IMG/VR virus record: IMGVR_UViG_3300045988_163643
Span: 128,001-192,000 of that record
Length of the DNA: 64,000 nt
Strand: one strand, 5' to 3'
From: a virus
Part shown: positions 4,053-54,104 of the stretch, piece after piece
Numbering within the stretch: the stretch's first letter is position 1
How the letters are laid out: each line of letters begins with the position of its first letter
The notes under the pieces: model-generated
Database searches by the model: none
Told to the model about the DNA's origin: nothing
What the model saw: only the letters and a program-made list of their open reading frames with translations
Translations under genes and position numbers: made by a program

Positions 4053-4254
4053 TAATTTGCTCCCTATGTAAGTAAATTGCATAGCAAATCCTTTTAATTG
4101 CTGGAAACTCCTAAAGCTCAATTCACTACAACGTAAGGTTAAATCCTAAGCGTGAATGTTACGAAAGTAGAAAAAAGTAATTGAGATTACCCAAGGTTAA
4201 ATCCTAAAGGTGAATAAATGGACAATCAGCAGGTAAGATTTATATTTATTTTAC

Positions 4255-4283
4255 TTTACTTTTAATAATTAAATTTGTATAAT
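4255..4283 (+). promoter_or_regulatory. sigma-A-like promoter for the intron T1 endonuclease ORF (TTTACT-N17-TATAAT)
   Basis: Homologous to the consensus promoters in introns M1 and M4, with 17-nt spacing. Confidence 0.45.
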
Positions 4284-4307
4284 TTAAGTAAATGGAGGTG
4301 AAATTGA

Positions 4308-5249
4308 ATGGCTCAATATAATAAGAAATGGACTAAAGAAAGTATGATTAAATACATCGAAGATAATGGGTATAAATTTATTAGATTTGCTGAAGATTTT
4401 AGAGGATGCGAAACAAGAATCATTATATGGTGTAAAAATTCAAATCACAAACCTTATGAAGTTAGATTTCAACATTTTAAAAATAATAGACGATGTAAAC
4501 AATGTAGAAAAGAAGAAAAGGTAAAATGGACTAAAGAAAATATAATTAAACATGTTGAAAATAATGGATATAAATTTATTAATTTTATTGAATTTGATTA
4601 TTCTAAATCAATAATTGAAATTTGGTGTGGAAATCCTAATCACAAACATAAAATTTCTACATTTAACGATTTTCATCAAAATGGAAGATGTAGAGAATGT
4701 TCTAATGAAAATAAAATTGTATGGACTGAAGAATCTATAATAGACTATATAAAGAAAAATAATTATGAGTTTATAGAATTTATAAATTATAAAGGATATT
4801 TAAGCAGAATAAAAATAAGATGTAATAAACATAATTCTTATGAAGTTGATTTTGGAAATTTTAAAAATGGATTTAGATGCCCATATTGTAATATGGAAAA
4901 CATTGAATCAAAAGGTGAAAAAGAAGTTGAAAGAATATTAAATAAATTTCATATAGATTATAAAAAACAATATTCTTTTGAAGATTGTAAATATAAAAAA
5001 TATTTGCCATTTGATTTTTATTTACCTCAATATAATACATTGATTGAATATGATGGAGAATATCATTTTCAAATAATAGAACATTTTGGTGGATTTAATA
5101 AATTTGTTAACACAAAAATAAGAGATACTATTAAGAATATTTATTGTAAGAATAATAATATAAAACTTATAAGAATTCCTTATTGGGAATTTAATAATAT
5201 AGAAAATATATTAAACAAAGAGTTAAAAGTAAAAAATAAATATGAATAA
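4308..5249 (+). CDS. intron-encoded putative homing endonuclease: 3 zinc-ribbon modules + Vsr/DUF559-like PD-(D/E)XK nuclease domain
   Basis: RBS GGAGGTGA. Three repeats of the form ...WC-x4-H-x12-15-RC-x2-C. The C-terminus has FDFYLP..IEYDGEYH..LIRIPYWE. The stop overlaps the conserved core GAAUAAACUUCAACGAC. Confidence 0.7.
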   Translation: MAQYNKKWTKESMIKYIEDNGYKFIRFAEDFRGCETRIIIWCKNSNHKPYEVRFQHFKNNRRCKQCRKEEKVKWTKENIIKHVENNGYKFINFIEFDYSKSIIEIWCGNPNHKHKISTFNDFHQNGRCRECSNENKIVWTEESIIDYIKKNNYEFIEFINYKGYLSRIKIRCNKHNSYEVDFGNFKNGFRCPYCNMENIESKGEKEVERILNKFHIDYKKQYSFEDCKYKKYLPFDFYLPQYNTLIEYDGEYHFQIIEHFGGFNKFVNTKIRDTIKNIYCKNNNIKLIRIPYWEFNNIENILNKELKVKNKYE

Positions 5250-5418
5250 ACTTCAACGACTATTCCGTAAGGAAGTAAAGTCACAAGCTATCGGTGGAAG
5301 AAATGGAGGATACCTAGAAATAGGTAGTGATATAGTCTGTTCTCATGTGAAAGCATGAGCAGTTTATATTGAATGAGTATAAACGATGTATGTGTAGCGA
5401 ACATATATGAACACAAAG

Positions 5419-5566
5419 ATAACTATATATCATTCTCAAGTGGTAGAACAGGAACATTGACAATGAATTGTCAAGTAATGGACGATGACTTCTTATGTAT
5501 GATGCTTGGTGCTACTAAAGGTACAGATGGTAAAATATCTGTAACATCTTCAGTTCCAAATCAAAG
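5419..5566 (+). CDS. major tail protein, exon 2 of 3
   Basis: This is the only open frame in the segment. It joins exon 1 as GGA G|AT (..KKG-D-NYISF..). The alternative 3' end is 5572. Confidence 0.5.
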
Positions 5567-6242: not shown

Positions 6243-6262
6243 TTAAATATATACTTGATAAA

Positions 6263-10900: not shown

Positions 10901-13089
10901 AGTTAATAATTTAAAAAATTCTGCAATGGATAATGTTATTAGAGAATCTTTTGATAACATTAAAATACCTAATTTAAATAAACAACTAGAAGCAGTTAAA
11001 GATTTAATGTCACTTAAAAATATGGATACTAGTGGTATAGATGCCTTAATAGAAAGAACTAAAAAACTATCAAGCTTAAGCGTAGATAAAATAGGTCAAG
11101 AATTTAAGGAAATACAAAATGCACTTGGTAAAGAAATTAATTTACGTTTAGGTACTAGTGGTATTAAAGATATAGAATCTGCATTAAAAGTCATATTACA
11201 ATATAGAAATGAATTAAAAAATAAAATAGCAATTGAAACAGATTCATCAAAAGTAAAAGACCTTAATAGTCAATTAGAAAAAACTGAAAGCATAATAGAA
11301 AAACTTAAAGGTCAAACTAGTGGTGGACTTGGTGCAAGTTTAATTAGTGATGCCAACAATAATAACTTAAAACAATTAGAAGATACTGCTAATGGATTAA
11401 AGAAAACATTCTCTAATTTGGAAAGTGAAGTAAATAAATTAAACAACGAAGCATTGAATAAGGTTGATATAAGTCAATTAAGAGAAATGAATGAAGTTGT
11501 TAATGATGTAAAGAGAAATTTGGCATCTATCGGAGAAGGAAATGTTAATGTTGATTCAATAAATAAAACAGCACAAGACATAGAAAAATTAAAGAGATTA
11601 ATAGAAAATACTAAAAAAACAATTAGTGATATGAAATTAGAAGTTTCATTTAATATTAAATCAAATGAAGCAGAACAATATTTAGCAGGTTTTGAATCAG
11701 CTTTATTGAGGTTAGGTAAATCAACTAGTGGAATAAATGCTTTAAAGAGTGAATTTGAAAGTATAAAAAATTCAGCTAATGGAAATTTAAGTAGTGCCAT
11801 AAAAATGATTGATGACTTTATTAATAAATTGAAACAAATGGGTAGCAAACAAGGTTTAGGTAATATAAGTGGTACTATGTCTCAGTACAAACAATATACT
11901 AGAGAATTACAACAAGCCATGAGTGGGGCGTTAAAATCTAGTGGTTCTGATACGGCTAAAGGATTCGAACAACAAGCCGAACGAATAAAAAGTGCCATAA
12001 AACGTTTAGTTTCAAGTTTCAAAGAATCACAAAGAGAATCAGCTAATGCTTTTAATGGTAGTACATTTAGTAATTTCTCTTCTAAATATGAAGCTGAAAT
12101 AAACAAAGTTGAAAGAAGTATAAATAAATTTAAATCATCAATGCAAAACTTAGATAAAGCTGTAAACTTCAAAGGTTTTCAAACTGATTTAGGAAGAGGT
12201 TTATCTGAACAATTTGACCAAATAATGGCAAAAGCTGAACAATTAAGAGATAGACTAAAAAGTGCATTATCATCTGGTACTTTTGATATAAGTGAAATAA
12301 ATAAAATAAAAGATGAATTAAAACAAGTTGAGCAAGAGGCAGATTCATTAAAACAAAAATCTATAGTATTAAAATGTGCTGAAAGTATAACAGAATTAGA
12401 AAGACTTAGCAGTAAGATAAAAGATATAGGTGGAGACACATCAAAAATAGAAGAATTAAAAAATAAATTTGTTACACTTGGTACAGGTATAAGAGAAGGT
12501 ACTACTGGAATAGATGATGCAATTTCTAAAATGAAATCTTTATCTTCGGAAGCACAAAGAACTGCTAGTTCTTTTGAATCAACTGCTGGTAAAATAGGTT
12601 CTTTTGGTTCTAAAATACAAGGTTTCTTTAGTTCTATAAAGAATTCATTTAGTACTTTTACTATTGGTAATTTAATGGCTGATGGTATAAGCCGAGCTGT
12701 TTATGAAATAAAAGATACTATAACAGGTTTAGATGAAGCAATGTCTGATTTTAAAAGAGTTGCTCCTGATAACTTTAGTTTAAATACATCTAATTTACAA
12801 AGTGTTGCTAACGAAGCAAGAGAAATAGGTATTAGTGTTGGACAATCAGTAGAAGATGTTATTACTGGAATGAGTACTGCATTACAAGCAGGTGCAGGCG
12901 ATATTAAAACTGCTTCTGAAATAGCAAAAAGTTCTGCAATATTCCAAAATGTTACAGATATGTCAGCAAAAAGTGCTTCAAAAGCTGTTTCTTCAATGAT
13001 AAATCAATATTATGATATGGATTCAGCATTAAATCAAGTTGACCACGGTGTAGGTAAATCCGTAAAAGGATACAACAACTTAACAGAGG
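7974..13089 (+). CDS. tail tape measure protein, exon 1 of 5
   Basis: TTG start lies 7 nt after GGAGGTGA. The sequence is a long coiled-coil-type protein. Its last ~150 aa begin the TP901/PhageMin_Tail-type core (..VANEAREIGISVGQSVEDVITGMSTALQAG..). Confidence 0.8.
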
Positions 13090-13303
13090 TAACATACAGC
13101 CTCCTATATTAAGTAATTAGTATAGAAAATTTCTTTAATTGCTGGAAACTCCTAAAGCCTTACAAACTACAACGTAGAGTTAAAACTCAAGCGTGAATGT
13201 GGCGAAAGCAGAAAAAATTGTAAGGATTACCCAAGGTTAAATCCTAAAGGTGAATGAATGGACAATCAGCAGGTAAGATTCTAAATTAAATTATTTTAAA
13301 TAT

Positions 13304-13332
13304 TTGACTTTTAATAATAAAATGAGTATAAT
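13304..13332 (+). promoter_or_regulatory. near-consensus sigma-A promoter TTGACT-N17-TATAAT inside intron M1
   Basis: Hexamers are at 13304-13309 and 13327-13332, 23 nt upstream of the endonuclease ATG. Confidence 0.6.
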
Positions 13333-13355
13333 ATAAGTAAAGTGAGGTGATTAAA

Positions 13356-14252
13356 ATGGGAAGAAAATGGGATTATGAAAAAGTTAAAGAATATATAGAA
13401 AATTTTAAATATAAATTATTAAGTGAGGAATACAAAAATAATAAAATTAAATTATTAATTAAATGTGATAAAGGACATGTATTTAAATGTTCATTTCATA
13501 ATTTTAAAGATAGAGACTCTAGATGTCCGTATTGTAATGGTAAAAAAATAACATATGATATGGTCAAGTTTTACATTGAATCTTACAATTATAAATTATT
13601 AAATGAAGATTATGTTGATAATTCTACTAAATTGTTAATAGAATGCGATAAAGGGCATACGTTTAAAATGCGATGGAATAATTTTCAACAAGGGCAAAGA
13701 TGTCCTATATGTGATAAAAGTCATAAAAAGAATTATAAAGATGTAAAAATAGAATTAGAAAAAGAAGGTTATGAATTAATATCGAGCAAATATAAGAATA
13801 GTAAAGAAAAATTATTAATCATGTGTCCTAATGGTCATACATATGAAACAAGTTGGAATAATTTTCAAAGAGGAAGAAGATGTCCAATGTGTAATATAAC
13901 AAAAGGAGAAAAAAAGATAAAAGAAATATTAGATAATAATAAAATAGAATATATGTATAATAAAAAATACTTTAAAGATTTAAAAGGAATAAATGGAGGA
14001 TTATTAAGACCAGACTTTGTAATACCATCATTAAGAATATGGATTGAATATGATGGTATACAACATTTTGAACCTAAAGATTTTGCTGGTAAAGGTGAAG
14101 AATGGGCTAAAAAAGAATTCGTTTTAAGAAAAATGAAAGATAAAATAAAAGATGAGTATGCTAAAGAACATGATTGGAAATTAATAAGAATACCTTATTG
14201 GGAATATGATAATATAGAAAACATATTAATAAAAGAATTAAATTTAAAATAA
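13356..14252 (+). CDS. intron-encoded putative homing endonuclease (3 zinc-ribbon modules + Vsr/DUF559-like nuclease)
   Basis: ATG 13356 follows GAGGTGA. Modules have the form LLI(K/E/M)C..GH..-x10-15-RCP.C. The C-terminus has RPDFVIP..IEYDGIQH..LIRIPYWE. Confidence 0.7.
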   Translation: MGRKWDYEKVKEYIENFKYKLLSEEYKNNKIKLLIKCDKGHVFKCSFHNFKDRDSRCPYCNGKKITYDMVKFYIESYNYKLLNEDYVDNSTKLLIECDKGHTFKMRWNNFQQGQRCPICDKSHKKNYKDVKIELEKEGYELISSKYKNSKEKLLIMCPNGHTYETSWNNFQRGRRCPMCNITKGEKKIKEILDNNKIEYMYNKKYFKDLKGINGGLLRPDFVIPSLRIWIEYDGIQHFEPKDFAGKGEEWAKKEFVLRKMKDKIKDEYAKEHDWKLIRIPYWEYDNIENILIKELNLK

Positions 14253-14431
14253 TTTAACAAGAATAAACTTCAACGACTAGAACGCAAGTTCGTAGGGTGT
14301 AAGCGATTGACACTCGAAATGGGAAACAATCAAAAACGGGTTGATGATATAGTCTGCTCTCATGGGAAACCATGAGCAGTTTTCATATAAAGAAAACGGA
14401 TTAAGTGTAGCGAACTTAATTGAACAAGAGG

Positions 14432-14578
14432 CAATGGACTTGGTCAATTATGCAGGCAATAATTTTGCGATTTCATCTGATGGTGTAACAGAAGCATTAC
14501 AACGTGGTGGTTCTGTATTATCTAACTATGGAGTAGATTTAAAAGATTCTATCGCAATGATAACTGGGGCAAATGAGT
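14432..14578 (+). CDS. tape measure protein, exon 2 of 5
   Basis: Encodes (A)MDLVNYAGNNFAISSDGVTEALQRGGSVLSNYGVDLKDSIAMITGANE, the typical central block of the tape-measure core domain. Confidence 0.75.
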
Positions 14579-14914
14579 TAAATATGGCTCTTTTATATAG
14601 TAATATATAATTAAATTTTCTTGAATTGACAGGGACTCCCTTAGAGCTTTACACACTAACTTATGATAGAAATATACATAAGGGCATTGCTAACCACAAT
14701 GATATAGTAAAAGAGGTAAAGATTGGGAAATCTGCATCTAAGATTCTAAGTTGTGTAAACAATATGAATAAAGTTCAACGACTAAGTATCCTAGTAGTCT
14801 AGGTAGTGGGAAACCTCCTATTGAAGGAGGAAGATATAGTCTCAACGTTTAGTGAAAGCTAAAGAAGTTCATAAGAGAACTGCGTAAGAATAACGAACTT
14901 ATGTGAAGATATTG
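14579..14914 (+). mobile_element. group I intron M2 (ORF-less)
   Basis: P1 is GAGU|UAAAUAUGGCUC with a canonical U at -1. P7 is CAACGACUA...GAUAUAGUC. The terminal hairpin has an AUAACGA loop. The 3' end is G14914 by homology, or alternatively G14908; both preserve the frame. Confidence 0.75.
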
Positions 14915-17900
14915 CATTACAAGACCCCGCTCGTATAGGTAATGGGCTAAAATCTATAGCAATTAACCTTTCAGGTATTAAAACAAATGCCAAAACAGGT
15001 GCTCTTGAATTAAATAAAACAGCAAAAGCATTGCAAGAGACTGCTAAAATAGATATATTTACTGATAGTACTAAAACACAAGTTAAAGATATCGTTAGTA
15101 TAATGGATGAAGTAAAAGATAAATGGTCTTCTTTAACTGATGTTGAACAAAAAGGACTATCAGAAGCTATAGCTGGAAAAACCCAAGCCGGTGTATTCCA
15201 AGCATTAATGACAGGTTGGGAAAGAGTTCGTCAATATCAAAAAGAATACAATGAAGGTTGGATGATAGGTTCAGCTCAAAGAGAAAATGAAGTCTTTATG
15301 GACTCCATTGCTGGTAAATTTAATACTTTAAAAGAAAATCTTAAAGGATTATTAACTAGCAATGTTACAACAGATATGTTTAAAGGACTATTAGATGGTG
15401 CTAATAAAGTAGTAGAAGCAGTAGGAAAAATAAGTTCAAGCTTAGGTAGCATTGGTTCTGCTGGTGCATTAGTAGGTATTTCATCTTTCATAAAAACTTT
15501 ATCAAATTTAGATAAAGTTAAAACAATGGGAAGTGTATTTACTGGATTTGACAAAGTTTTAGGTGGGTTACAAGGTGCATCTGGTATTTCTGGTACAATT
15601 AGTACATTAACAGGTAGCTTTAAAGAATTAGGTGTTGGTGTAACTTTATCTAAAGTAGCATTAGGATTATTTAAAGGTGTACTAATGGGTATTGCATTTA
15701 CTGCTGTTGTTGCAGGAATAAGTGCTTGTGTAAAAGCATGGAACGATTATACTCATGCAACAGAAAACGCAGTAAAGGCTTCTAAAGAAAGACAAGATGG
15801 ATATAGAGATGAAGCACAAACTTTAAGTACTAAAAAATCAAGCCTACAAGAAATAGCTAAAGAATATGATAATTTAAATAATAAATCTGATAAAACTGCT
15901 GAAGATTTAACTAAATTAAATGAATTAAAACAACAAATAGGACAAATAGCTCCTGACCTTGTTAAAGGATATGATTCAGCAGGCAATCCAATATTAAACC
16001 TTACTACTAGTATGCAGGGTTATATAGCTGAATTAAATAAGGCAATTGCTAAACAACAAGAATTATATAACTATGAAACTAAAAAACAAGCACGAGAATA
16101 TATGAAGAAAAATGACACTAAAAATGGAGCTCAAGACCCAGAAAGAAATTCTTATGAAACTGAATTAAATAATCTTCAAAGTGCAAATGATAGAAAAACT
16201 AGAGAAGAAAAAAGATATACTGGTAGCTTAAAAAATATTATTAAAGATAGAAATAAATATAGAGAAGACCAAGAAAAAAGTATTAATGAAAGATTAGAAA
16301 GAATTAGAAATTCACAAACAGAAATTAATAATAGAGATGCTACACTTGAAGATAATTATGTTAATGAATTTAATAAGAAAACTAAATTAGCCGAAAAAGA
16401 ACAAAATAAATTTGCTACCTTTATGAAAGGGTTAAATTGGGGTACTTATGGTGAAGCAGAAGCCAATAGAATGGCTAATGGTTTACAAAAATTATCTGAA
16501 AAGACAGCATTTACAACTCAAGAGATGACAAAAGGATTATCAGGTAGCATGTCAAAAAAAGTTTCAGAAGAAATTTCTAAAGTAAATGCAGAATTCAAAA
16601 AAACAAATGCTATAAATGAATGGGGAAAAGGTTTAAGAAAAATAGCTAATGAAACAGGAAAATTTGATTTTTCAAATTGGAGTAATTACTTATCAGAAGT
16701 CCAAACTCGTTTTGAACAAGGAGTAAGTACTAATGAACAATATACACATTCATTAGGAATTATGGCTGATGCTATGGAAGATTTAACTGGTATAGATTCA
16801 GATGTATTCTTACCAGCTTTAAAAGGTGGAGCAGATTTAGAAGAAGCCTTTAAATCAGCAACTGAAGGTTTAAATGGTTTTATGAGTGCTTATGGTTCTT
16901 CTACTGCAAAATTACAACAAGGTGATTCATTTGCTAAAAAATTAGAATCTCAATTTAAAGAACTTCAAAATTTTGAAACTGAATTTGAAGGTCAATATGA
17001 GATGCAAGGTAAAGTTAGTGTAGATTGGTTAGTAGAACAAAAAGATAATGAAGATTTACCTAAACAATTAAGAACAATAATAGATGCAGTAACAAAAGAT
17101 GGAGAAGTAACAGAAGTAGAAGAAAAATTAGTATTAGCTTGTGAAACAGAAATAAAAGATAAAGGTAAATTACAACAAAGTACAATAGATGCAATAAATC
17201 AAGTAATGGACGGAACTTGGGATGTAAATAAAACTATTGAAATAGGTGGTATGGAATTTACATCATCTGAAATAAAAGAATTAATGTCATTAGCTGACCA
17301 ATTAGGTATATCTTTAGAAGGTTTAAATATTGGTGATACAGGATTAGACGGAGAAAACCAAAAAGCTCAAGCATTAAAAGATACAATAGATTCAATTACA
17401 GATAGAAATATAAAAGTAGCAATAGAAGCTGAAGGATTTGAAAATTCAGACCAAGTTAATAATATAATGTCAGTTGTTGACCAAATAGACGGAAAACAAG
17501 CTAAAGTTGATTTTATAGCAGATGCTTCTCAATATTTTAAGGAAAATGATAGTGTTGAATCAGCAATAAATGCTATGCCTGATGAGATAAAACTTAAATA
17601 TAATATTGGTGTTGAAGGTGATGAAAGACTAGAAGGAATACAAAGTAGACTTGAAAAATTACCAAAAGATATTAGAACTATGGTATATGCTCAAACATAT
17701 GGTGTTGAAAATGTTGAAATGCTAGAAAACATAGTAGATGCTTTTGGTGGAAAAACTGCAACAGCAATATTACAGTTAGATGGTATAGATGAAGCTCTTA
17801 GAAATGCTAGTACATTTGAAGAACAATTAAAAATAATTGGAGATTTTATATGTCAACCTGGAGTAGAAATAGAAGGTAAAGATGACATAATTAAAACAAT

Positions 17901-20900
17901 TGATGAAATATTAAAGAAGTTAAAAGAAACAGATGGGCAAGAAAGTAATCCTAAAATAAACGTAGAAGGAGATACTTCAGGTGCCGAGAAAGTAAAAAAA
18001 GAAGTAGATGAAGTAGGCAATAAAAAAGGGACAGCTAAAGCTGATGTAGATGGAGATACTTCAGGAGCTGAAAAAGTAGAAAAAGAAGTAGACAATGTAA
18101 ATGGAAAAAAAGGTACTGCTGAAGCAAATGTGGATGGCAATACTGAAGGTGCTGAAAAAGTAGAAAAAGAAGTAGACAATGTAAATGGGAAAAAAGGTAC
18201 TGCTAATGTAGATATTAAAGCAGATACCTCTGAAGCTGAAAAAGCTAAAAAAGAAGTAGATAATTTAGCAGTCAACAAAAATGGTACAGTTACTTTATTA
18301 GTAAATGGTCAAGAAAAAATAGCTGAAGCTAAAATTAATAAAGGTCAATTAGAAGTAAATGGTCAAGCAGTTACAACTATTTCTGTTAACGGTAAAGACC
18401 AATTACCAATAGCTATTAATGAAAAAGGTCAATTAGAAGTAAATGGTCAAGCTATAACTAATATAGATGTTAATGGTAAAGACCAATTAACTTTAGCTAG
18501 AAATGAAAAAGGTCAATTAGAAGTAAATGGTCAAGCTATAACTAATATAGATGTTAATGGTAAAGACCAATTAACTTTAGCTAGAAATGAAAAAGGTCAA
18601 TTAGAAGTAAATGGTCAAGCTATAACTAATATAGATGTTAATGGTAAAGAAAAAGTTTCTGAAGCAAAAAAAGAAGTTGATGATTTAACCAAAGATAATA
18701 AAAATGTTAGTATTAATATTGATGTTTCATTAAAAGAAACTGTTGGTGAAATATTATCAAGATTTGGATTAAATAAGAAAACAGAAAATGTTGAAATTAA
18801 TGTAACATGTAATGATAATGCAACTCCAGTATTAGAAAAAATAATGGCAAGACAAGATAAAACTATACAAATAAAAGTAGATTGTCAAGATAATGCAACT
18901 TCTAAAATAAACAATATAACTAAAATAGGAAATAAAACTGTAACAGTTACAATAAATTGTCAAGATAATGCAACTTCTAAAATAAATAGTATAGCTAGTA
19001 TGGGTAATAAATCTGTAACAGTTACTATAAATTGTCAAGACAACGCAAGTTCTACAATAAATAGAGTTACAAGTGCACCTTCTTCTAAAGCAATAAATGT
19101 TGTAGTAACTTGTACAAATGGTGGAGCAGTTCTTAATACTCTTTCTCAATTAGCTAGTAAAGTAATACCTAGTAAAAAATTTACTATAAATTGTACAGAT
19201 AGTGCTAGTAGTGTAGTAAGTAGAGTTAATGGTTTAAAAATATCTGATAAGAAATTTACTATAAATTGTACAGATAATGCAACTGCTAAAATAAATAAGG
19301 TTATTAGTAAAAAAATACCAAATAAATCATTTACTATAAGTTGTAATGATAATGCTAGTGGTAAATTAAGTAGTATTATAAGTAAAATAAGTAATATTCG
19401 TAGTAAATCAGTAACAATTACTACTAATCATGTAAGTACAGGTAAGAGTTCATCTATTGGTGAACCAACAGTTGTTGATTTACAACCTCAACCATTTAGT
19501 GCTCAAGCTTCTAATCCTCAAGTACAATCATTAGGAGAACAAGTTCAAGTATTAAATGATAGTGTGCAACAACAAACTGACAATAACAATGAAGTTAGTG
19601 TAATGGCTAAGAAGACATATAAAGCTAATATTGATACAGGTTTAACAGTAAGTGCAGTTAAATATAATATTGATTTATTAACTAACATGACTAATATGCT
19701 TAAAAAATTAGGAACTCAAGTTGATATATTAAAAGCTAAACAAGAAAGAACTTGGGGTACTGCAAGTGCTAAGTTACTTAGAAATCAAATTTCTTTACTA
19801 ACTAAACAACAAGATTTAACTAAAATAAATATTAAAAACATGGAAGGTATGGCTAAAAAACTTAAAGGTAGTTTACAAAAACAAGGATTTAAGTTTAAAG
19901 ATGACGGAACAATAAGTAATTACAATAGTAAACTTGTAAAAATGCAAAAAAATGTTGAAAGTTTAGAGAAAGCTGAAAAAGCACTAGAAGACCAAATAAG
20001 TAAAACTGAAAAACAAATTTCAAAATCTGAAAAGAAATCTTCAAGTAAGAAAAAATCAACTAGTAAGAAAAAGAAAAGTACTAGTAAGAAAAAGAGTACG
20101 AGCAAAAAGAAGAAAACTTCAAGTAAAAAGAAATCAACTAAGAAAAAGAGCACTAAGAAGAAAACTACTAAGAAGAAGAGTGCTAGTAGAAGCAATAGAA
20201 AAACTACATCAAGTAAAGCTAGTAAAAAGAAGACTACTAAGAAGAAAAAATCAACTAGTAAGAAAAAGAGTACATCAACTAAGAAGAAGAGTACTAAAAA
20301 GAGTACTAAAAAGAAAACTACTTCTAAGAAGAAATCAACCACTAAGAAGAAGAGTACATCTTCAAGCAAGAAATCAAAAGCAACTAAAGCATTAGAAAAG
20401 AAAAAGAGCGGATTAGAAAAGAAAAAGGATGCAATAAGCAAACAATTAGAAAAAGCACAAAAAGAATTATCAGAAACTCAAAGCAAATTAAATGAATATT
20501 ATAATTTACAATTTAGTGAAATTCCTGAAGCTCAACAACAATGGGAAGAATATGCTAATGCAATAGCTGAAGCTAAAGCAGAAATAATTAGATGTGAATT
20601 AGAAGCTAAAACATTCTTTAAGACAATTAAGATGGAAATGAAAGATGCTATGATTAGCAGAAATGAAACTTGGGCAGATACATTTATGTTGAAGGCTGAT
20701 TTAAGTAGTTGGTCTAAAGCAATAGGATATATTAAAGAAGCTAATAAATTATTAGCAAAAAATCAACAACATCAACAATCTAAATTAGAAACAGCTCAAG
20801 CAAGAGCGGAAGATAATAAAGCATTTTTAAAGAAACAAGGATTTAAATTTGATAAAAATGGATATGTAACAGGTGCTGAAAAAACTTTACAAAAACTTAA

Positions 20901-22402
20901 AAAGAAGAAATCATCACAAGAATACGATGCTATAAAAGAAGCATTTGATAGTTACGTTGATGATATGTATGAAAATATTCCTAAAGCTGAAAATGAATGG
21001 TGGAAATTAGAACAAGAAATAAAAGAAAATGAAAGACAAATAAAAGAAACTACTAAATCTATGAATGATTTAGTTAATTCAGCTAAAGTAGATAAATTAA
21101 CTAGACAATTTGATGTACTTTCAAATACTTTAGATATATTAGACCTTAAAATGGAACGTGCATATGGAGCTAATAAAATAGACTATATGAAACAACAACT
21201 TGATATATTATCTAATATGAAAAGTAAGAATCAAGAAATCATTAATCAAAATACTGAGTTATTAAATAATAGTAAGAAACAATTAGTTAAATATGGTGTT
21301 ACATTTGATGAAGATGGTAATATAGATAATCTATCAAAAGCATTGAAAAAATTAGATAATCTACAAGATATGGAAGATTTAAAAGATTTAGCTGATGAAT
21401 ATAATGATTACAAAGATTCAATAGATGATGCTAGTAAATCAATTGAAGAAGAAACTAATAAACAACTTGAATTAAAAGATTCAATGATGGAAATTAGAGA
21501 AGAAATGAGAAAACTTAGAGATGATGCATGGGTTAAAACTTATGAAAATGGTCTAAAAGTTATTCAAAATCGTATTGATACAATAGATTCTTTATTAGAT
21601 TTGGAAGATGAAAATCAATTTGGTTTACTAAATCAAAAAATTGAAGAATATAAGAATTTAACTAAAGCGACTGAGGATAGTTTGGCTTATCAAAAACATA
21701 GAAAAATCACTATGCAAAAAACATTGATTGATTATGGTTTCACTATTAATGATGATGGTACAATAGATGGAACTGCTAATAAATTAGAACAACTTAAAAA
21801 TACATTATCTGAAACTGAATTTGGTATAGTAAGTGATACATTAGAAGATTATTTTGATACTGCTTTAGATACAATTCCTGAATTAGAAAGAGAATTAATA
21901 AAATATCAAAAAGATTTAAAAGATATACAAAATACTAAACTAGAAAAGACTAAAACTATTGAAGAAAAAATTACTGAAATATATAATGATGAAATAGATA
22001 AAAGAACTAAAAAGATACAAGAAGAAGCAGAAACACAAACTAAAGCACTTAATAAAGCCAAAGAATCTTATCAGAGATGGAGAGACGAAGTTGACTATAA
22101 AGATGATTATAATAAACAATTAAAAACTGTTGAAGATTTACAAAAGAAAATAGAAATAGCAAAACGTGATGACAGCTTAACTGGACAAAAACGTTTAGCT
22201 GATTTGATGAAAGAATTAAAAGAAGAACAAGAAAATCTTGAAGATTTAGTTCAAGACAAAATAGATTCAGATATAAATAACATGTTTGATGACCAAATAG
22301 ATAAAATAGAAGAAAATTCTGATGAAGAAGTTAAGAATTTGGAAAAAACATGGTCAGAAAGCAAAATAGCTGAAATGGTTAAACAAGCACTTGATACTGG
22401 AG
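14915..22402 (+). CDS. tape measure protein, exon 3 of 5
   Basis: Continues the core (..LQDPARIGNGLKSIAINLSG..), then a TM-like Gly/Ala/Val segment, several repeat arrays and a long coiled coil. Confidence 0.8.
17968..18270 (+). repeat. in-frame tandem repeat, 84-nt (28-aa) unit, about 3.6 copies (GDTSGAEKVxKEVDxVxxKKGTAxAxVD)
   Basis: Units start at 17968, 18052, 18136 and 18220. Confidence 0.85.
18340..18650 (+). repeat. in-frame tandem repeat, 84-nt (28-aa) unit, about 3.7 copies (KGQLEVNGQAITNIDVNGKDQLTLARNE)
   Basis: 18421-18504 and 18505-18588 are identical. A third copy is identical until about 18648. The first copy has diverged. Confidence 0.9.
18808..19430 (+). repeat. eight ~25-aa in-frame repeats, each starting with a single Cys (C(Q/T/N)DNA(T/S)..I......K.(V/F)T(V/I)(T/N)(I)N)
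   Basis: Read directly from the translation of exon 3. Confidence 0.8.
20020..20425 (+). repeat. Lys/Ser/Thr low-complexity polybasic tract (~130 aa) inside the tape measure protein
   Basis: Translation reads KSEKKSSSKKKSTSKKKKSTSKKKSTSKKKKTSSKKKSTKKKSTKKKTT... Confidence 0.9.
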
Positions 22403-22749
22403 TAAATTAGCTCCTTTTACTAAGTAATTAGTATTAAAACTCATTGAATTGCTGGAACTTCCTAAAGCTAACTAAACTACAATATGGCTAGAAATGGCGA
22501 ATATGAATGTGGCGAAAGCAGAAAAAATTAGTTAGATATTCATATGGTTAAATCCTAAGTGAATGTAAATGGATAATCAGCAGGGAAGTCCCTTTAAAAT
22601 GGGAAACCTTCAACGACTATATATACTAGTAGTCTAGTTAGTGGTGAGCATCCTTATAGGATGATGATATAGTCTACTCTCATGTGAAAGCATGAGCAGT
22701 TCATAAGAGAACGGTATAAGGTTTAACGAACTTTATATGAATGTTAAGG
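22403..22749 (+). mobile_element. group I intron M3 (ORF-less)
   Basis: P1 is GGAG(U)AAAUUAGCUCC. Internal helix is CUAACUAA/UUAGUUAG. P7 is CAACGACUA...GAUAUAGUC. The hairpin with a UUAACGA loop is followed by GAAUGUUAAGG. Confidence 0.8.
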
Positions 22750-22840
22750 TGTTTACAGATATCGATGGGAATATAAAAACTCTTCAAACAGCATTAATGG
22801 ATTTTGCTAATGAAAGTTCTGATTATTTTGGAGTTATGGG
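22750..22840 (+). CDS. tape measure protein, exon 4 of 5 (91-nt micro-exon)
   Basis: This is the only open frame: (V)FTDIDGNIKTLQTALMDFANESSDYFGVM(G). It is flanked on both sides by introns. Confidence 0.7.
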
Positions 22841-23051
22841 TAATGTTGCCCTAGTCGTAGAGTAATTTGCGACTGAAAATAGATTTAATTGCAGGTAATT
22901 CCTAAAGCCTTACACCACAAGTATTCTGAAAAGAGATACTGAAGGTACGAAAGTAGAAAAAACGTAAGGATGAATATAAGGTTAAACCCTAAGTATTCGT
23001 AATAATGGATGTTCATGCAGGTAAGATTCTAAATTAAATTATTTTAAATAT

Positions 23052-23080
23052 TTGACTTTTAATAATAAAATGAGTATAAT
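23052..23080 (+). promoter_or_regulatory. near-consensus sigma-A promoter TTGACT-N17-TATAAT inside intron M4
   Basis: Hexamers are at 23052-23057 and 23075-23080. The segment is 83/84 identical to the M1 promoter segment. Confidence 0.6.
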
Positions 23081-23102
23081 ATAAGTAAAGCGAGGTGATT
23101 AA

Positions 23103-24431
23103 ATGGCAAAAAGAAAAAGATATACATATCAAGATGTTAAAAATATTGTTGAAAATGAAAATTATGAATTAATAAGTACAGAAAATGAAATTATTGATGA
23201 AAAGGGATTTGTTAAAACATCAACTAAAATAACAGTATGGTGTAAAAATGAAAATCATAATTATATAAAACCTCAATTAAGTAAGTTTCTCAAAGGGGGT
23301 AGATGTGGAAAGTGCAGAAATGATAATAAAAAACTTGATTATAAATATGTAAAAGAATATGTTGAATCATTTGGATATAAATTATTATCAAAAGAGTATA
23401 AAAATAATTCAACGGATTTGTTAATTGAATGTCCATTAGAACATAAGTTTAAAATGATTTTTAATAATTTTAAAAAAGGACAAAGATGTCCCAAATGTGG
23501 TGAAATAAAAAGAAGAGAAAAAAGAACGATATGGAATAAAGAAAAAATAATTAATTTTGTGAAAAATAGTAATTATGAATTTATCAAATTTGTTAAATTT
23601 GACAAATTAAACTCAAGAATATTAATAAAATGTAATAATAAAAAACATGAGTCATATGAAGTTACTTTTGCTAATTTTAAAAATGGAAAAAGATGTCCGT
23701 ACTGTTCTAATCATGTAAAATTTGATTATAAATATGTAAAAGAATATATTGAATCATTTGGATACAAGTTATTATCAAAAGAATATAAAAATACAAATGA
23801 ATATATTTTAATAAAATGCCCTGATGAAAATCATAAACCTTATTTAGTTAAATTTTCTTCTTTTAAAAATCAAGAAACTAGATGTCCTTATTGTCAAAAT
23901 AAAAAAAGAGGATTATATAGAAAGTTTGATTATAAATATGTAAAAGAATATGTTGAATCATTTGGATATAAATTGTTATCAAAAGAATATAAAAATTGTG
24001 ATGAAAAACTAAAAATAGAATGTAATAAAGGACATATTTATGAAGTATCTTTTTATTGTTTTAAAAATTTAAATACAAGATGTCCTATATGTAATGAGAG
24101 CAAGGGAGAAATAAAAATAAGAGAGATACTTAATAAATATGATATAAAATTTACTCCTCAAAAGAAATATAGTAAATTAATTGGAATTAAAGGCAGACAA
24201 TTGTCTTATGATTTTTATTTACCTTTATATAACACATTGATAGAATATCAAGGAGAATATCATGATGGTACGGGATATAATCAAACTAAAGAAAAATTTG
24301 AAACCCAAAAAGAACACGATAAAAGAAAAAGAAATTACGCTAAAGACAATAACATAAAATTATTAGAAATATGGTATTATGATTTTGATAATATAGAAAA
24401 TATATTAATAAAAGAATTGAATTTAAAATAA
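23103..24431 (+). CDS. intron-encoded putative homing endonuclease (5 zinc-ribbon modules + Vsr/DUF559-like nuclease)
   Basis: RBS GAGGTGA. Five ..C-x3-5-H-x12-17-C-x2-C modules. Three near-identical ~70-nt DNA repeats lie at 23337-23406, 23724-23792 and 23928-23996. The C-terminus has YDFYLP..IEYQGEYH..LLEIWYYDF. Confidence 0.7.
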   Translation: MAKRKRYTYQDVKNIVENENYELISTENEIIDEKGFVKTSTKITVWCKNENHNYIKPQLSKFLKGGRCGKCRNDNKKLDYKYVKEYVESFGYKLLSKEYKNNSTDLLIECPLEHKFKMIFNNFKKGQRCPKCGEIKRREKRTIWNKEKIINFVKNSNYEFIKFVKFDKLNSRILIKCNNKKHESYEVTFANFKNGKRCPYCSNHVKFDYKYVKEYIESFGYKLLSKEYKNTNEYILIKCPDENHKPYLVKFSSFKNQETRCPYCQNKKRGLYRKFDYKYVKEYVESFGYKLLSKEYKNCDEKLKIECNKGHIYEVSFYCFKNLNTRCPICNESKGEIKIREILNKYDIKFTPQKKYSKLIGIKGRQLSYDFYLPLYNTLIEYQGEYHDGTGYNQTKEKFETQKEHDKRKRNYAKDNNIKLLEIWYYDFDNIENILIKELNLK

Positions 24432-24607
24432 TTTAACAAGAATAAACTTCAACGACTAGAACGCAAGTTCGTAGGGTGTAAGCGATTGACACTCGAAAAG
24501 GTCTACCCTTAATATTAAGGTGAAGAAATAGTCTAGTCACTCTAGGAAACTAGGTGCTTAGAATTAACTAAGGTTTATAGTGTAGCGACTATAAATAAAT
24601 ATTAACG

Positions 24608-24917
24608 TGATAGCTTAAAGAAAGAATTATTAGACAATCTTAATGTAGCATTGGAAACTATGAAAGAACTTCAAAAAATGTCAGATAATTATACAGCTCC
24701 TAATATAGATTATAGTAATACGGTACTTCCAAAAGATAGTACTATTAATACTTCTCCACAAGTTTCTAGTAATGTTGAAACTAATAATATTACAATTGGA
24801 GATACAAATATTACAATTCAAGGTAGTGCAGATGATGTTACTTTAGGAAAAGTAGATGAAATGTTAAAAGATTACAAAGCAAGTATTTGTAAGGAAATTG
24901 TTAAAAATATGAAATAA
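24608..24917 (+). CDS. tape measure protein, exon 5 of 5
   Basis: Open frame to TAA 24915-24917. The five exons sum to 13,152 nt (4,383 aa with the chosen junctions). Confidence 0.7.
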
Positions 24918-52911: not shown

Positions 52912-52989
52912 TAATAATAGCTCAAATAAAACCTTTTCTGATATACGGCGAAACTCCTGGAGAGGACAACGCCTTCCAACTATTATTTA

Positions 52990-53018
52990 TTGACAAATTA
53001 TAAAAATATATGTATAAT
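52990..53018 (+). promoter_or_regulatory. perfect consensus sigma-A promoter TTGACA-N17-TATAAT inside intron L0
   Basis: Hexamers are at 52990-52995 and 53013-53018, upstream of the endonuclease RBS. Confidence 0.65.
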
Positions 53019-53054
53019 ATAAATATAAAGAGAATATATATAGGAGGTGATTAT

Positions 53055-53912
53055 GTGTGTAAGAAAGAGAATAGTTTTGCACAATGGTTTATAAATGAAT
53101 TTGGATTAGAAAAATTTAACACTGTCATAAATCATGAAAAAAATAAATCATTAGGCATAGATATTTGGAACGTATCAAAGAGAAGTGGTTGTAAAATTTG
53201 GTTTAAATGTGAAAATAAAGATTATCACGAATATCAACTTACAGCCGATAAATATTTTATTGGTAATAGATGTAAATATTGTGGCAGAACAAAATATGTT
53301 CATCCAAGAGATTCGTTAGGTCAATATATAATTGATAACTTTGGAGAAGATTTTTTAAATAGAATATGGTCAACAAAAAATAAAAAATCGCCTTTTGAAT
53401 ATACTATTGGAACTGAGAAGAAAGTTTGGTTTAATTGTATCAATGGTATTCATGAACCAAAATTAAGACAAATAAAAAATTCTGTTGCTAACGACTTTAA
53501 ATGCCCATTTTGTTTAAAAAATTGCCATATTTCAAAATTAGAAAAGAAAGTGTTTTTATATTTAAAAAGCATTTTTAAAAACATAAATAGAGAAAGCAAT
53601 TGTAATTTAATACCCAAAAATCCTAAAACTAATAAAATAATGCCTTATGATAATGAGATAGTGGACATAAAATTAATAATAGAAGTACATGGAAAACAGC
53701 ATTATGAATTATCAGTAGATACAAGTGCATGGTTACATGGATTATCACCAGAAGAATATCTTCATAAAAGAAAATTGTATGATAGGTATAAAAGAATGTA
53801 CGCAAAGTCCAATGGTTATTATTATTTAGAAATACCTTATTGGGCTGATGATTTAGAGGAAACTTGGAAAATTATGATTGATGATAAAATAAAAGAAATA
53901 TTAAGTCAATAA
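53055..53912 (+). CDS. intron-encoded putative homing endonuclease (2 zinc-ribbon modules + Vsr/DUF559-like nuclease)
   Basis: GTG 53055 lies 7 nt after AGGAGG (the track start 53010 lacks an RBS). Modules are WFKC..H..-RCKYC and WFNC..H..-KCPFC. The C-terminus has ..IIEVHGKQH..YLEIPYW. Confidence 0.65.
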   Translation: MCKKENSFAQWFINEFGLEKFNTVINHEKNKSLGIDIWNVSKRSGCKIWFKCENKDYHEYQLTADKYFIGNRCKYCGRTKYVHPRDSLGQYIIDNFGEDFLNRIWSTKNKKSPFEYTIGTEKKVWFNCINGIHEPKLRQIKNSVANDFKCPFCLKNCHISKLEKKVFLYLKSIFKNINRESNCNLIPKNPKTNKIMPYDNEIVDIKLIIEVHGKQHYELSVDTSAWLHGLSPEEYLHKRKLYDRYKRMYAKSNGYYYLEIPYWADDLEETWKIMIDDKIKEILSQ

Positions 53913-54104
53913 ATAATAGGGGAACAACGACTGAGCGAAAAGGACTTACTATAAAGTAAGTATGCAACAGTCTGAACTCACACTATAACTCAAAATATTA
54001 AGAAATGTGAGAAGGAAAGTCATCAGTAACCAGACTGATTAAAGAAGAACTTTCCTCGCCAACTTAGGTTGGTCGGTAGCCTTTATGGTGAAAGTAACAG
54101 AATG

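What the first reader, a model, noticed from the sequence alone, without database searches (positions are those of the whole stretch)
23052..24431. Intron-borne endonuclease family with a variable number (2, 3, 3, 5) of tandem zinc-ribbon modules fused to a Vsr/DUF559-like nuclease, each with its own sigma-A-type promoter
The ORFs at 4308-5249, 13356-14252, 23103-24431 and 53055-53912 share one architecture. The N-terminus carries tandem ~45-65-aa modules of the form ..(Y/F)(K/E)(L/F)(L/I)..-x-..(I/L)xC-x3-5-H-x12-17-(R/K/T)C-x2-C, which have C/H/C/C spacing typical of treble-clef or zinc-ribbon folds. The C-terminus is a ~110-aa domain with (D/Y)F(Y/V)(L/I)P-x6-(I)E(Y/V)xGxxH ... (I/L)P(Y)W, which I recognise as the Vsr/DUF559 PD-(D/E)XK-type signature. 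The module number differs between copies. The 5-module protein contains three near-identical ~70-nt DNA repeats (23337-23406, 23724-23792, 23928-23996), indicating recent module gain. A tandem-array DNA-binding region of adjustable length would offer a simple route to retargeting. All three td-family ORFs sit in the same ribozyme loop, between ..CAGCAGGUAAGAUUCUAA and GAAUAAACUUCAACGAC, which is a short hairpin in the ORF-less copies. All four ORFs are preceded by sigma-A-type promoters: TTGACA-N17-TATAAT, TTGACT-N17-TATAAT (twice) and the weaker TTTACT-N17-TATAAT. Expression could therefore be uncoupled from the late structural transcript.
Basis: partly seen in the sequence, partly recalled or inferred. 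Interest (0 to 1): 0.75.

Follow-up and report, generated by a model that had tools for sequence, protein, structure and literature searches.

The report
Intron homing endonucleases with zinc-module arrays
Four selfish "homing" nuclease genes sit inside self-splicing introns of a gut phage's tail genes; each joins a chain of 2 to 5 small zinc-binding DNA-reading modules to a Vsr-type DNA-cutting domain, and this gene family was first described in 2025, so these are new members, not a new kind.

Summary
ORFs 4308-5249, 13356-14252, 23103-24431 and 53055-53912 carry 3, 3, 5 and 2 tandem C-x3-5-H-x12-17-C-x2-C modules. These pass Pfam's cut-offs for CapR and/or DUF4379. A ~110-aa C-terminal domain follows. 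Its profile hits I-Bth0305I (3R3P, E 8e-6) and Vsr, and its AlphaFold model matches Vsr best. The catalytic D, E, H and D are present in all four.

Three ORFs replace the terminal hairpin of the P6 extension of td-like group I introns. The fourth splits a gene that is contiguous in Bacillus phage G, but its intron class is unverified.

The three repeats are 95% identical over 77-80 nt. They cover only the first ~26 codons of modules 2, 4 and 5. A 99%-identical metagenomic allele has lost exactly the 387 bp between repeats 1 and 2, going from 5 to 3 modules.

The only three strict TTGAC(A/T)-N16-18-TATAAT matches in 64 kb lie directly upstream of three of these ORFs. Transcription is untested.

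The architecture is already published for phage group I and II introns (NAR 2025, gkaf761). It extends the EDxHD family (2011). Repeat-mediated module loss is described for CapR/T5orf172 endonucleases (2023). Verdict: real, well interpreted, new members of a known kind.

The parts
23103..24431 (+). HEG C: 442-aa homing-endonuclease ORF with five zinc modules plus a Vsr/EDxHD-like nuclease
   Evidence: an identical protein (P0001) occurs on 4 metagenome contigs
23103..23315 (+). Module C1 (aa 1-71, CHCC ligands C47/H52/C68/C71)
23316..23498 (+). Module C2 (aa 72-132); absent from allele L001/P0002
23499..23705 (+). Module C3 (aa 133-201), 'W-type'; closest to module A3 (35/63 identical); absent from allele L001/P0002
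23706..23894 (+). Module C4 (aa 202-264)
23895..24092 (+). Module C5 (aa 265-330)
24093..24428 (+). Vsr/EDxHD-like nuclease domain of HEG C (D370, E381, H387, D406, K409)
23326..23405 (+). DNA repeat copy 1 (start of module C2)
23717..23793 (+). DNA repeat copy 2 (start of module C4); the deletion allele L001 joins copy 1 to copy 2
23917..23996 (+). DNA repeat copy 3 (start of module C5)
23052..23080 (+). Sigma-A-type promoter-like element TTGACT-N17-TATAAT, inside the P6 loop, 22 nt before the ATG
   Evidence: hexamers conserved in L006/L007 with a diverged spacer
23092..23098 (+). Ribosome-binding site GAGGTGA of HEG C
   Evidence: read from the sequence
22841..24607 (+). Group I intron I6 hosting HEG C (boundaries +/-1 nt). 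Its halves are 85% and 100% identical to an ORF-less intron in L002 that Rfam scores at 66 bits
4308..5249 (+). HEG A: 313 aa, three modules plus nuclease; its stop codon lies in the 3' strand of P6
4255..4283 (+). Weaker promoter-like element TTTACT-N17-TATAAT upstream of HEG A
4053..5418 (+). Group I intron I1 hosting HEG A, in a tail-tube-like gene (boundaries +/-1 nt). The junction is supported by a gapless alignment to the phiCD211 homologue
13356..14252 (+). HEG B: 298 aa, three modules plus nuclease
13304..13332 (+). Promoter-like element, identical to the one at 23052
13090..14431 (+). Group I intron I3 hosting HEG B, in the tape-measure-like gene (boundaries +/-1 nt)
53055..53912 (+). 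HEG D: 285 aa (GTG start), two longer modules plus a divergent nuclease domain
52990..53018 (+). Promoter-like element TTGACA-N17-TATAAT upstream of HEG D
52912..54104 (+). Intervening sequence hosting HEG D, splitting a gene that is contiguous in Bacillus phage G gp353. Intron class not verified

Best explanation
The four ORFs are homing-endonuclease genes of the 'CapR-like array + EDxHD/Vsr-like nuclease' lineage, carried inside self-splicing introns of phage structural genes. Shown: each protein is a beads-on-a-string chain of ~60-aa modules. Each module has a helix, a beta-hairpin carrying Cys and His, a short helix and a CxxC knuckle. The chain ends in a Vsr-fold nuclease that keeps the residues equivalent to I-Bth0305I D196, H213 and D222 plus the conserved Glu. 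Shown: in A, B and C the gene, with its own promoter-like element and ribosome-binding site, replaces the terminal hairpin of the P6 extension just 5' of J6/7-P7, so the ribozyme core stays intact. Inferred from I-Bth0305I and CapR: the nuclease domains dimerise and cut an intron-less allele at or next to the insertion site. The zinc modules read flanking DNA and set the site. Repair from the intron-containing copy then spreads intron plus gene. Shown: array length and composition change by recombination. The helix-coding first third of modules is conserved enough at DNA level (95% over ~80 nt in HEG C) to act as a crossover point, and a natural allele differs by exactly the two modules between repeats 1 and 2. 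Cassette ends are shared between HEG B, HEG C and a relative in other phages, while the interiors differ. Inferred: host sigma-A-type promoters in the loop let the endonuclease be made independently of the late transcript.
For: Pfam CapR and/or DUF4379 above cut-off in all four. PHROG 559/9084 E 1e-89 to 1e-13. Module counts 3/3/5/2 and 2-8 in relatives. The nuclease profile hits 3R3P at E 8e-6 and Vsr at E 0.02. D, E, G, D are invariant, and H in the full-length alignments. AF2 pLDDT 88 and 86. Foldseek PDB hits: Vsr 1cw0_A prob 1.0 and TMt 0.60, 3r3p_B prob 0.98, RAP and DUF559 structures. BFVD hits down to E 1e-31 include phage proteins named 'homing endonuclease'. tblastn finds 533 phage records, including Campylobacter Hef and a Lactococcus 949 'group I intron protein'. 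Group I status: I5 91 bits, I4 63 bits, I2 41 bits, I7-I9 62-100 bits, the ORF-less I6-like intron in L002 66 bits. Intron halves around the HEGs are homologous to these. The P6-loop position follows from Rfam's structure line. Deletion allele. Mosaic cassette ends. Promoter placement. Published description of the same architecture in phage group I and II introns: PMC12350094. EDxHD prototype: PMC3239194.
Against: No cleavage, zinc, DNA-binding or transcript data exist for these proteins. HEG C has Gln where most relatives have Asp in IEY(D)G; that position is also N, H or Q in relatives, and I-Bth0305I has N there. Pfam's DUF559 model itself matches only weakly (E 0.07, one protein). ORF D's flanks are not recognised as group I. 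Promoter-like strings are common in 27% GC DNA. The deletion allele comes from a contig at 2.5x coverage and carries a Cys-to-Trp change at a zinc ligand, so it may be decaying or contain errors.
Confidence: 0.85

Rival explanations
1. They are HNH endonucleases, as PHROG 559 and many RefSeq phage records name their relatives.
For: The PHROG 559 label is 'HNH endonuclease'. RefSeq annotates the homologues in Lactococcus phages 949, phiL47, P1048 and WRP3 as 'HNH endonuclease'.
Against: No HNH-family Pfam model matches any of the four proteins at E<=1. The only nuclease-like domain matches I-Bth0305I and Vsr by sequence and by fold. The Cys/His residues all lie in the repeated N-terminal modules, not in a beta-beta-alpha-Me site.
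Confidence: 0.02
2. Some or all copies no longer cut DNA. They would act as DNA-binding regulators, as the PLE protein CapR evolved from HEG DNA-binding domains, or as splicing helpers, and are kept for that role.
For: CapR is a repressor derived from such zinc modules. HEG C has Q for D in IEYDG. Allele P0002 has lost a zinc ligand and two modules.
Against: All four keep the Asp, Glu, His and Asp that align with the catalytic residues of I-Bth0305I and Vsr. The Q position is not conserved in the family. Closely related phages differ in intron presence at a site (L002 versus the window), which argues for ongoing mobility in this lineage.
Confidence: 0.1
3. The TTGAC(A/T)-N17-TATAAT strings are chance products of AT-rich sequence, or serve as RNA or translation-control elements. 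The HEGs would then be expressed only from read-through of the late transcript.
For: The window is 26-30% GC. Relaxed promoter-like matches are as frequent as in shuffles. Two of the three strict matches are one duplicated sequence. A free-standing relative (L010) has no such element and is tightly coupled to the upstream gene.
Against: The only three strict matches in 128 kb of both strands all lie 20-40 nt upstream of HEG start codons (0.51 expected anywhere). In L006/L007 both hexamers are unchanged, while 6 of the last 9 spacer bases differ. L008 has TTTAAA-N17-TATAAT with an extended -10 TG at the same position.
Confidence: 0.3
4. They are restriction-like or anti-phage defence nucleases carried by the phage, not homing endonucleases.
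For: Several BFVD structural neighbours are named 'restriction enzyme/endonuclease'. There are weak PADLOC hits to PD-DEXK candidate models.
Against: The PADLOC hits are weak (E 1e-4 to 1e-6) and limited to the nuclease or CxxC region. All four genes sit inside intervening sequences of essential structural genes, the hallmark context of homing endonucleases.
Confidence: 0.03

Closest known systems
[quoted passage not shown]
   Same: The architecture matches as published: three to five ~60-aa domains distantly related to Pfam CapR, DUF4379 and DUF723, followed by a ~100-aa C-terminal EDxHD/Vsr-like domain. The genes are encoded inside phage introns, and the family is described as a large, mostly unannotated outgroup with thousands of members. 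Here: the same Pfam hits and 65,515 cluster representatives at E<=1e-3.
   Different: These copies sit in td-like group I introns of tail genes of an unclassified AT-rich gut phage, not in RNA-polymerase genes. The module range here is 2-5, and 2-8 in relatives. This window adds an allele pair that differs by two modules and shows conserved promoter-like elements. I did not align the paper's own sequences to these.
I-Bth0305I, prototype of the EDxHD homing-endonuclease family (Taylor et al. 2011, PMC3239194; PDB 3R3P)
   Same: C-terminal Vsr-like nuclease with conserved Glu, Asp, His and Asp. N-terminal DNA-binding region. Encoded in a phage group I intron. It is the best solved-structure match by sequence (E 8e-6) and is among the top fold matches.
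   Different: Its N-terminal region has two NUMOD/HTH motifs and no zinc modules, and its ORF interrupts P5, not P6. Its nuclease motif is NGxYWH, where most proteins here have DGxxH. Sequence similarity is remote.
Hef-type homing endonucleases of Campylobacter phages (NCTC12673 group)
   Same: Direct tblastn matches cover 87-98% of HEG C, modules included (E 2e-18). Taylor et al. placed Hef proteins in the EDxHD family.
   Different: 25-29% identity. In those genomes they are annotated next to repeat units, not in td-like introns. I did not examine their context.
CapR of Vibrio PLE satellites and CapR/DUF723/DUF4379-containing T5orf172 HEGs of ICP1 and other phages (Barth et al. 2023, bioRxiv 10.1101/2023.03.23.533998)
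   Same: The same type of Zn-binding DNA-binding module, often in tandem. Recombination between degenerate repeats inside the gene gives in-frame deletions (ICP1 gp174, 228 bp), and modules are exchanged between genes. The 387-bp deletion allele and the mosaic cassettes seen here follow that pattern.
   Different: The nuclease there is T5orf172 (GIY-YIG-related), not Vsr-like, and most of those genes are free-standing.
I-TevI in the T4 td intron
   Same: The ORF occupies the P6 region loop of a td-type group I intron, and the protein is bipartite. Independent expression of T4 intron ORFs from internal promoters is established knowledge (my recollection of Gott et al. 1988, not checked here).
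   Different: I-TevI is a GIY-YIG enzyme with the nuclease at the N-terminus. Its DNA-binding region has a single zinc finger plus an HTH, not an array.

Membership tests
EDxHD / Vsr-like homing endonucleases | Nuclease domain with the Vsr endonuclease fold | tested here: met
   AF2 model of HEG B (pLDDT 88). Foldseek PDB: 1cw0_A Vsr prob 1.0 and TMt 0.60; 1vsr; 3r3p_B prob 0.98 and TMt 0.59; 3hrl.
EDxHD / Vsr-like homing endonucleases | Conserved catalytic Glu, Asp, His, Asp (I-Bth0305I D196, H213, D222 plus Glu) | tested here: met
   D, E, G, D are invariant in alignment A1, and H is invariant in A2 and A3. The profile aligns them to the 3R3P residues; the crystal construct carries D196A and H213A. 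The 'D' of IEYDG is variable (Q in HEG C, H in HEG D).
EDxHD / Vsr-like homing endonucleases | Significant sequence relationship to family members | tested here: met
   Profile versus PDB: 3R3P E 8.2e-6. tblastn to Hef proteins E 2e-18. Pfam DUF559 is only E 0.07, so the relationship is remote (an 'outgroup').
EDxHD / Vsr-like homing endonucleases | Encoded in a self-splicing intron or intein (or free-standing next to its target) | tested here: met
   A, B and C lie in group I introns. D lies in an intervening sequence of a gene that is contiguous in phage G.
EDxHD / Vsr-like homing endonucleases | Site-specific double-strand cleavage of the intron-less allele; homodimer | not testable with these tools
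   Needs purified protein and substrates built from the joined exons.
CapR / DUF4379 zinc-binding DNA-binding modules | Match to the Pfam models above the gathering score | tested here: met
   CapR 29-42 bits (cut-off 24.2) in A, B and C. DUF4379 37-50 bits (cut-off 24.5) in B, C and D.
CapR / DUF4379 zinc-binding DNA-binding modules | Four conserved metal ligands per module | tested here: met
   C, H, C, C are present in all 13 modules and invariant in alignments of relatives. The consensus of 400 modules keeps C..GH...RCP.C.
CapR / DUF4379 zinc-binding DNA-binding modules | Binds zinc and sequence-specific DNA | not testable with these tools
   Reported for CapR only, through the cited paper.
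Group I introns (host elements) | Covariance-model match to RF00028 | tested here: met
   ORF-less copies: 41-100 bits. The ORF-less I6-like intron in L002: 66 bits. HEG-bearing copies are homologous in both halves but cannot be scored across the ~1-1.4 kb inserts.
Group I introns (host elements) | ORF D's intervening sequence is a group I intron | tested here: inconclusive
   No Rfam match on the 3' flank alone. Exon continuity is shown. P1- and P7-like strings are seen by eye only.
HNH endonucleases (label used by PHROG and RefSeq for relatives) | HNH / beta-beta-alpha-Me motif | tested here: not met
   No HNH Pfam family at E<=1 in any of the four. The nuclease domain is Vsr-like.
Sigma-A (sigma-70 type) promoters | -35 and -10 hexamers with 17-nt spacing at a sensible distance from the gene | tested here: met
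   11-12 of 12 matches upstream of B, C and D; 10 of 12 upstream of A.
Sigma-A (sigma-70 type) promoters | Transcription initiates there | not testable with these tools
   Indirect support only: hexamers are conserved and the spacer has diverged in L006/L007.

The most novel reading that the evidence does not exclude
The conserved helix-coding first third of each module may act as a built-in crossover point. Arrays could then expand, contract and swap modules quickly, retargeting the endonuclease and letting one intron/HEG lineage colonise many sites in one genome. That would fit the 11 intervening sequences in 64 kb, including four in a single tape-measure gene and a fifth in a 98.6%-identical relative. 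A second oddity: five of these introns keep the host reading frame only if the 5' exon ends at the G before the expected splice-site U. If real, that is a non-canonical group I splice register.
Probability: 0.2. Interest if true: 0.55.

Novelty: new member of a known kind. Interest (0 to 1): 0.3.

Why it matters
The family is very large: 65,515 cluster representatives (50% identity clusters) at E<=1e-3. It is mostly unannotated, or mislabelled 'HNH' or 'restriction enzyme'. Correct naming would improve phage annotation. These four paralogues share a nuclease type but have different arrays and different targets in one genome, and there is a natural 5-module/3-module allele pair. Together they form a compact test set for how tandem CapR-like modules read DNA and whether array length sets target choice. 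The same question bears on whether this scaffold could be engineered like zinc-finger or TAL arrays fused to a dimerising nuclease. The basic discovery, however, has already been made.

Tried and rejected
- Near-identity DNA search of the locus against GenBank phages found nothing, so the phage itself is undescribed.
- A single-sequence search of HEG C against PDB gave only noise. The relationship to 3R3P and Vsr appeared only with a profile.
- Rfam on the whole window, at both thresholds, found only three of the introns. The others needed short sub-windows. The HEG-bearing ones cannot be scored at all.
- Rfam on the 3' flank of ORF D gave nothing, and Rfam on four relatives' loci gave nothing.
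- NCBIfam had no useful match. PADLOC gave only weak PD-DEXK hits.
- I aligned five ORF-less introns to build my own covariance model but dropped the idea, because I9 misaligned in the middle.
- I tried to fix exact splice sites from reading frames. The result is a consistent but non-canonical register that I could not resolve (notebook, 'unexplained').
- A split-intein ('fractured gene') reading for ORF D was rejected. Only ~30 codons follow the conserved exon end upstream, and only 8 in-frame codons precede the downstream exon.
- Misassembly as the cause of the 387-bp deletion allele is judged unlikely. Copy 1 and copy 2 are identical for only 10 nt at the crossover, shorter than assembler k-mers. 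Coverage is low (2.5x).
Full report
**Observation**

The four ORFs are present. They are preferable to the longest-ORF starts at 13347 and 53010.

- A regex for C-x2-8-H-x8-22-C-x2-C finds 3 modules in A (4308-5249), 3 in B (13356-14252), 5 in C (23103-24431) and 2 in D (53055-53912).
- Pfam-A places the modules in CapR (PF21817) and/or DUF4379 (PF14311, 'probable treble clef zinc finger') above the curated cut-offs in all four proteins.
- PHROGs places all four in phrog_559 (E 1e-89 to 7e-17) and their C-terminal parts in phrog_9084 'homing endonuclease'.

**The nuclease domain**

I aligned the ~110-120 residues after the last CxxC from the four proteins and 22 relatives. Asp (DF), Glu (IE), Gly and Asp (KxxDxxK) are invariant. 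The His of GxxH is invariant in the full-length alignments.

- A profile of this alignment hits the I-Bth0305I catalytic domain best among all PDB sequences (3R3P, E 8.2e-6). E. coli Vsr follows (1odg, 1vsr, 1cw0, E about 0.02).
- The aligned residues correspond to D196, H213 and D222, which Taylor et al. mutated as the metal-binding and general-base residues. The crystal construct carries D196A and H213A, which explains the Ala at those positions in the alignment.
- AlphaFold2 models are confident locally and look like beads on a string: HEG B pLDDT 88 and pTM 0.46; HEG C pLDDT 86 and pTM 0.39.
- Foldseek of the HEG B model against PDB ranks Vsr-DNA (1cw0_A, prob 1.0, TM 0.60 on the target) first. 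Next come Vsr, RAP-domain mitoribosomal proteins, I-Bth0305I (3r3p_B, prob 0.98) and the DUF559 protein 3hrl.
- The E-values are modest (3e-3 and weaker), but sequence and fold agree.
- No HNH model matches. The 'HNH endonuclease' label on phrog_559 and on RefSeq homologues is a misnomer.

**The modules**

In the models each module is a 9-residue helix, a short strand, a beta-hairpin with Cys and His at its turn, a 5-residue helix and the CxxC knuckle.

- A consensus of 400 modules from relatives reads .gn.KltYEeVKeYIEsfGYkLLS.EYkN..tKL.ikCpkGH.ye.tF.nFK.G.RCP.C.
- The most variable positions are in the linker, in the loop before the first strand, and at alternating positions of the strand after His.
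- Two subtypes occur here. The 'Y-type' comprises B1-3, C2, C4 and C5. The 'W-type' comprises A1-3 and C3. C3 is closest to A3 (35/63 identical).

**Intron context**

The motif CTTCAACGAC marks ten related elements in the window (13 matches versus 1 expected).

- Rfam recognises the ORF-less copies as group I introns:
  - I7, I8 and I9 (62-100 bits);
  - I5 at 22394-22696 (91 bits);
  - I4 (63 bits);
  - I2 (41 bits, E 4e-9).
- Several of these were missed in whole-window scans and needed short sub-windows.
- In Rfam's structure line the segment GCAGG(U/G)AAG...CUUCAACGACUA is P6 with its extension, followed by J6/7 and P7.
- In ORF-less copies the extension ends in a short hairpin, for example GAUUCUAAG-UGAUAAUUUAUCA-UAUGAAUAAAC in I2. 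In I1, I3 and I6 that hairpin is replaced by promoter-like element, ribosome-binding site and ORF.
- HEG A's stop codon lies inside GAATAAAC.
- A 98.6%-identical phage contig (L002) carries an additional ORF-less intron. Its halves are 85% and 100% identical to those of I6, and Rfam scores it at 66 bits. I6 is therefore a group I intron by direct homology.
- I3 and I1 are homologous to I6 in both halves.
- ORF D is different. Its flanks do not resemble the others, and the 3' flank alone has no Rfam match.
- A query made by joining the flanking ORFs aligns in one piece across the junction to Bacillus phage G gp353 (E 3e-23). ORF D therefore lies in an intervening sequence of unverified class.

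**Repeats and module number**

The repeat finder reports three 102-nt copies at 82-84% identity. BLAST shows the cores are 95% identical over 77-80 nt.

- The repeats encode (K/R)(L/F)DYKYVKEY(V/I)ESFGYKLLSKEYKN, the first ~26 codons of modules C2, C4 and C5.
- The remainder of those modules is only ~35-40% identical in protein. This is not a simple recent duplication of whole modules.
- Protein P0002 (313 aa) comes from a Hadza gut contig and is 99% identical to HEG C, but it lacks residues 80-208.
- At DNA level, contig L001 matches window 22074-23406 and 23717-24880 with a 77-nt overlap. That is a 387-bp in-frame deletion from repeat 1 to repeat 2.
- The junction follows copy 1 up to its last diagnostic base and then copy 2, so the crossover lies in a 10-nt identical block. 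That is too short to be an assembler artefact, although coverage is only 2.5x.
- The two alleles thus differ by exactly modules 2 and 3. Direction (loss or gain) is unknown.
- Among the 120 best relatives, module counts run from 2 to 8, with 4 the most common.
- P0046 shares module 1 with HEG C at high identity but has different downstream modules and the other nuclease subtype.
- HEG B and HEG C differ by one base over the ~80 nt from P6 to the ribosome-binding site, and match at 67 of 68 nt in the 3' flank. Their ORF starts are 56% identical and the rest of the ribozymes 45-66%.
- The genes are therefore recombination mosaics.

**Promoters**

The strict pattern TTGAC(A/T)-N16-18-TATAAT occurs three times in the window on both strands (0.51 expected). 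All three lie 20-40 nt upstream of the starts of HEG B, C and D. HEG A has TTTACT-N17-TATAAT.

- B and C share one ancestral sequence, so there are two independent strict matches plus one weaker.
- By my own arithmetic, a random hit falls within 60 nt upstream of one of four starts with probability about 0.002. The placement is therefore not chance, even though relaxed matches are as common as in shuffles.
- In L006 and L007, other phages carrying relative P0018, the same cassette has identical -35 and -10 hexamers, while 6 of the last 9 spacer bases differ. L008 has TTTAAA-N17-TATAAT with TG one base upstream of the -10 hexamer (extended -10). The free-standing relative in L010 has none.
- This is consistent with selection on the hexamers. 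Transcription itself is untested.

**What is known**

The family is abundant.

- tblastn finds relatives in 533 GenBank phage records. These include Bacillus, Lactococcus 949-group, Streptococcus thermophilus and Staphylococcus phages and the Campylobacter 'Hef' proteins.
- The word-indexed search finds more than 2,500 relatives among the candidates scored.
- The nuclease profile finds 65,515 cluster representatives at E<=1e-3 and 23,866 at E<=1e-10.
- BFVD neighbours include many giant-virus proteins.

The literature already covers the main points.

- The EDxHD family and its Vsr fold were defined in 2011, with Hef proteins included (PMC3239194).
[quoted passage not shown] - Barth et al. 2023 showed for CapR/T5orf172 HEGs that the zinc modules are repeated, that recombination between degenerate repeats gives in-frame deletions, and that modules are exchanged between genes.

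The architecture, its likely role and its mode of evolution are therefore all published. The copies here are new members.

**Mechanism**

Shown:
- domain order and folds;
- conservation of catalytic and metal-ligand residues;
- position in the P6 loop;
- allele and cassette mosaicism;
- placement and conservation of the promoter-like elements.

Inferred from I-Bth0305I and CapR:
- dimerisation through the nuclease domain;
- cleavage at or near the insertion site of an intron-less allele;
- DNA reading by the zinc modules;
- spread by recombinational repair;
- early or independent expression from the internal promoters.

L002 carries an intron at a site that is intron-less in the window, with several substitutions in the adjacent exon bases. 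This is the kind of presence/absence polymorphism expected from ongoing intron mobility.

**Verdict**

Interest is limited by prior publication. What this window adds is a four-paralogue set in one genome, a natural 5-module versus 3-module allele pair with its junction inside the repeat, evidence for conserved internal promoters, and an unusually intron-dense structural region.

Noticed in passing
window 4053-5418, ~5593-5975, 13090-14431, 14569-~14895, 22403-22749, 22841-24607, 47937-49162 (three), ~52912-54104, ~54590-55015: There are eleven intervening sequences in 64 kb of phage structural genes. Eight of the ten td-like ones are supported as group I by Rfam or by close homology. A ninth (I2) scored below Rfam's gathering score (41 bits vs 50, E 4e-9). 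I10 was judged by eye only. One tape-measure-like gene (7974-24917) carries four, a tail-tube-like gene (3908-6243) two, and another gene (46564-50185) three in a row.
   Followed up: partly
L002:6944-7319 versus window ~22185: A 98.6%-identical phage from a Hadza gut metagenome has a fifth, ORF-less group I intron (Rfam 66 bits) in the tape-measure gene, at a site that is intron-less in the window. Several exon substitutions lie next to the junction. This is an intron presence/absence polymorphism between near-identical phages.
   Followed up: partly
window 4052/4053, 13089/13090, 22402/22403, 22840/22841; L002:6943/6944: Five introns were examined for splice register. The only register that keeps the host reading frame and ends the intron in G at the conserved 3' tail places the 5' exon end at the G before the predicted splice-site U. 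For L002 versus the intron-less window allele, this register gives an identical protein, whereas the canonical U(-1) gives a stop or frameshift. For intron I1 the junction length fits the uninterrupted phiCD211 homologue without a gap. Either the splice register is non-canonical or my P1 assignment is off by one.
   Followed up: partly
window 13262-13355 vs 23010-23102 and 14253-14320 vs 24432-24499; L006/L007:2870-3000 and 3927-4050: The HEG cassette ends (P6 5' strand, promoter-like element, ribosome-binding site; and last codons, P6 3' strand, P7) are nearly identical between introns I3 and I6, and recur in other phages. The ORF interiors and the rest of the ribozymes are far more diverged. 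This indicates recombination or cassette transfer between introns.
   Followed up: partly
3' ends of the td-like introns, e.g. window 5390-5418, 5950-5975, 14397-14431, 24575-24607, 49137-49162, 54985-55015: These introns end with a conserved hairpin whose loop reads GUAGCGA, followed by a (U)GAAYAUAAAGG-like tail. In I1 the mechanical ORF list reads this hairpin as coding sequence (ORF 5373-5579), but it is intronic.
   Followed up: no
whole window: GC content is 25-32% with positive GC skew throughout and all large ORFs on the + strand. The source is a human gut metagenome phage (Hadza and other cohorts). The closest characterised homologues of the tail-tube-like protein are Clostridioides phiCD211-group phages (~40% identity), which suggests a Clostridia host.
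   Followed up: partly
window 18500-21000 region of ORF 15031-22410: The tape-measure-like protein contains long internal protein repeats (for example NEKGQLEVNGQAITNIDVNGKDQLTLAR, three copies, and CQDNATSKIN units) and a ~200-residue Lys/Ser/Thr-rich low-complexity tract.
   Followed up: no
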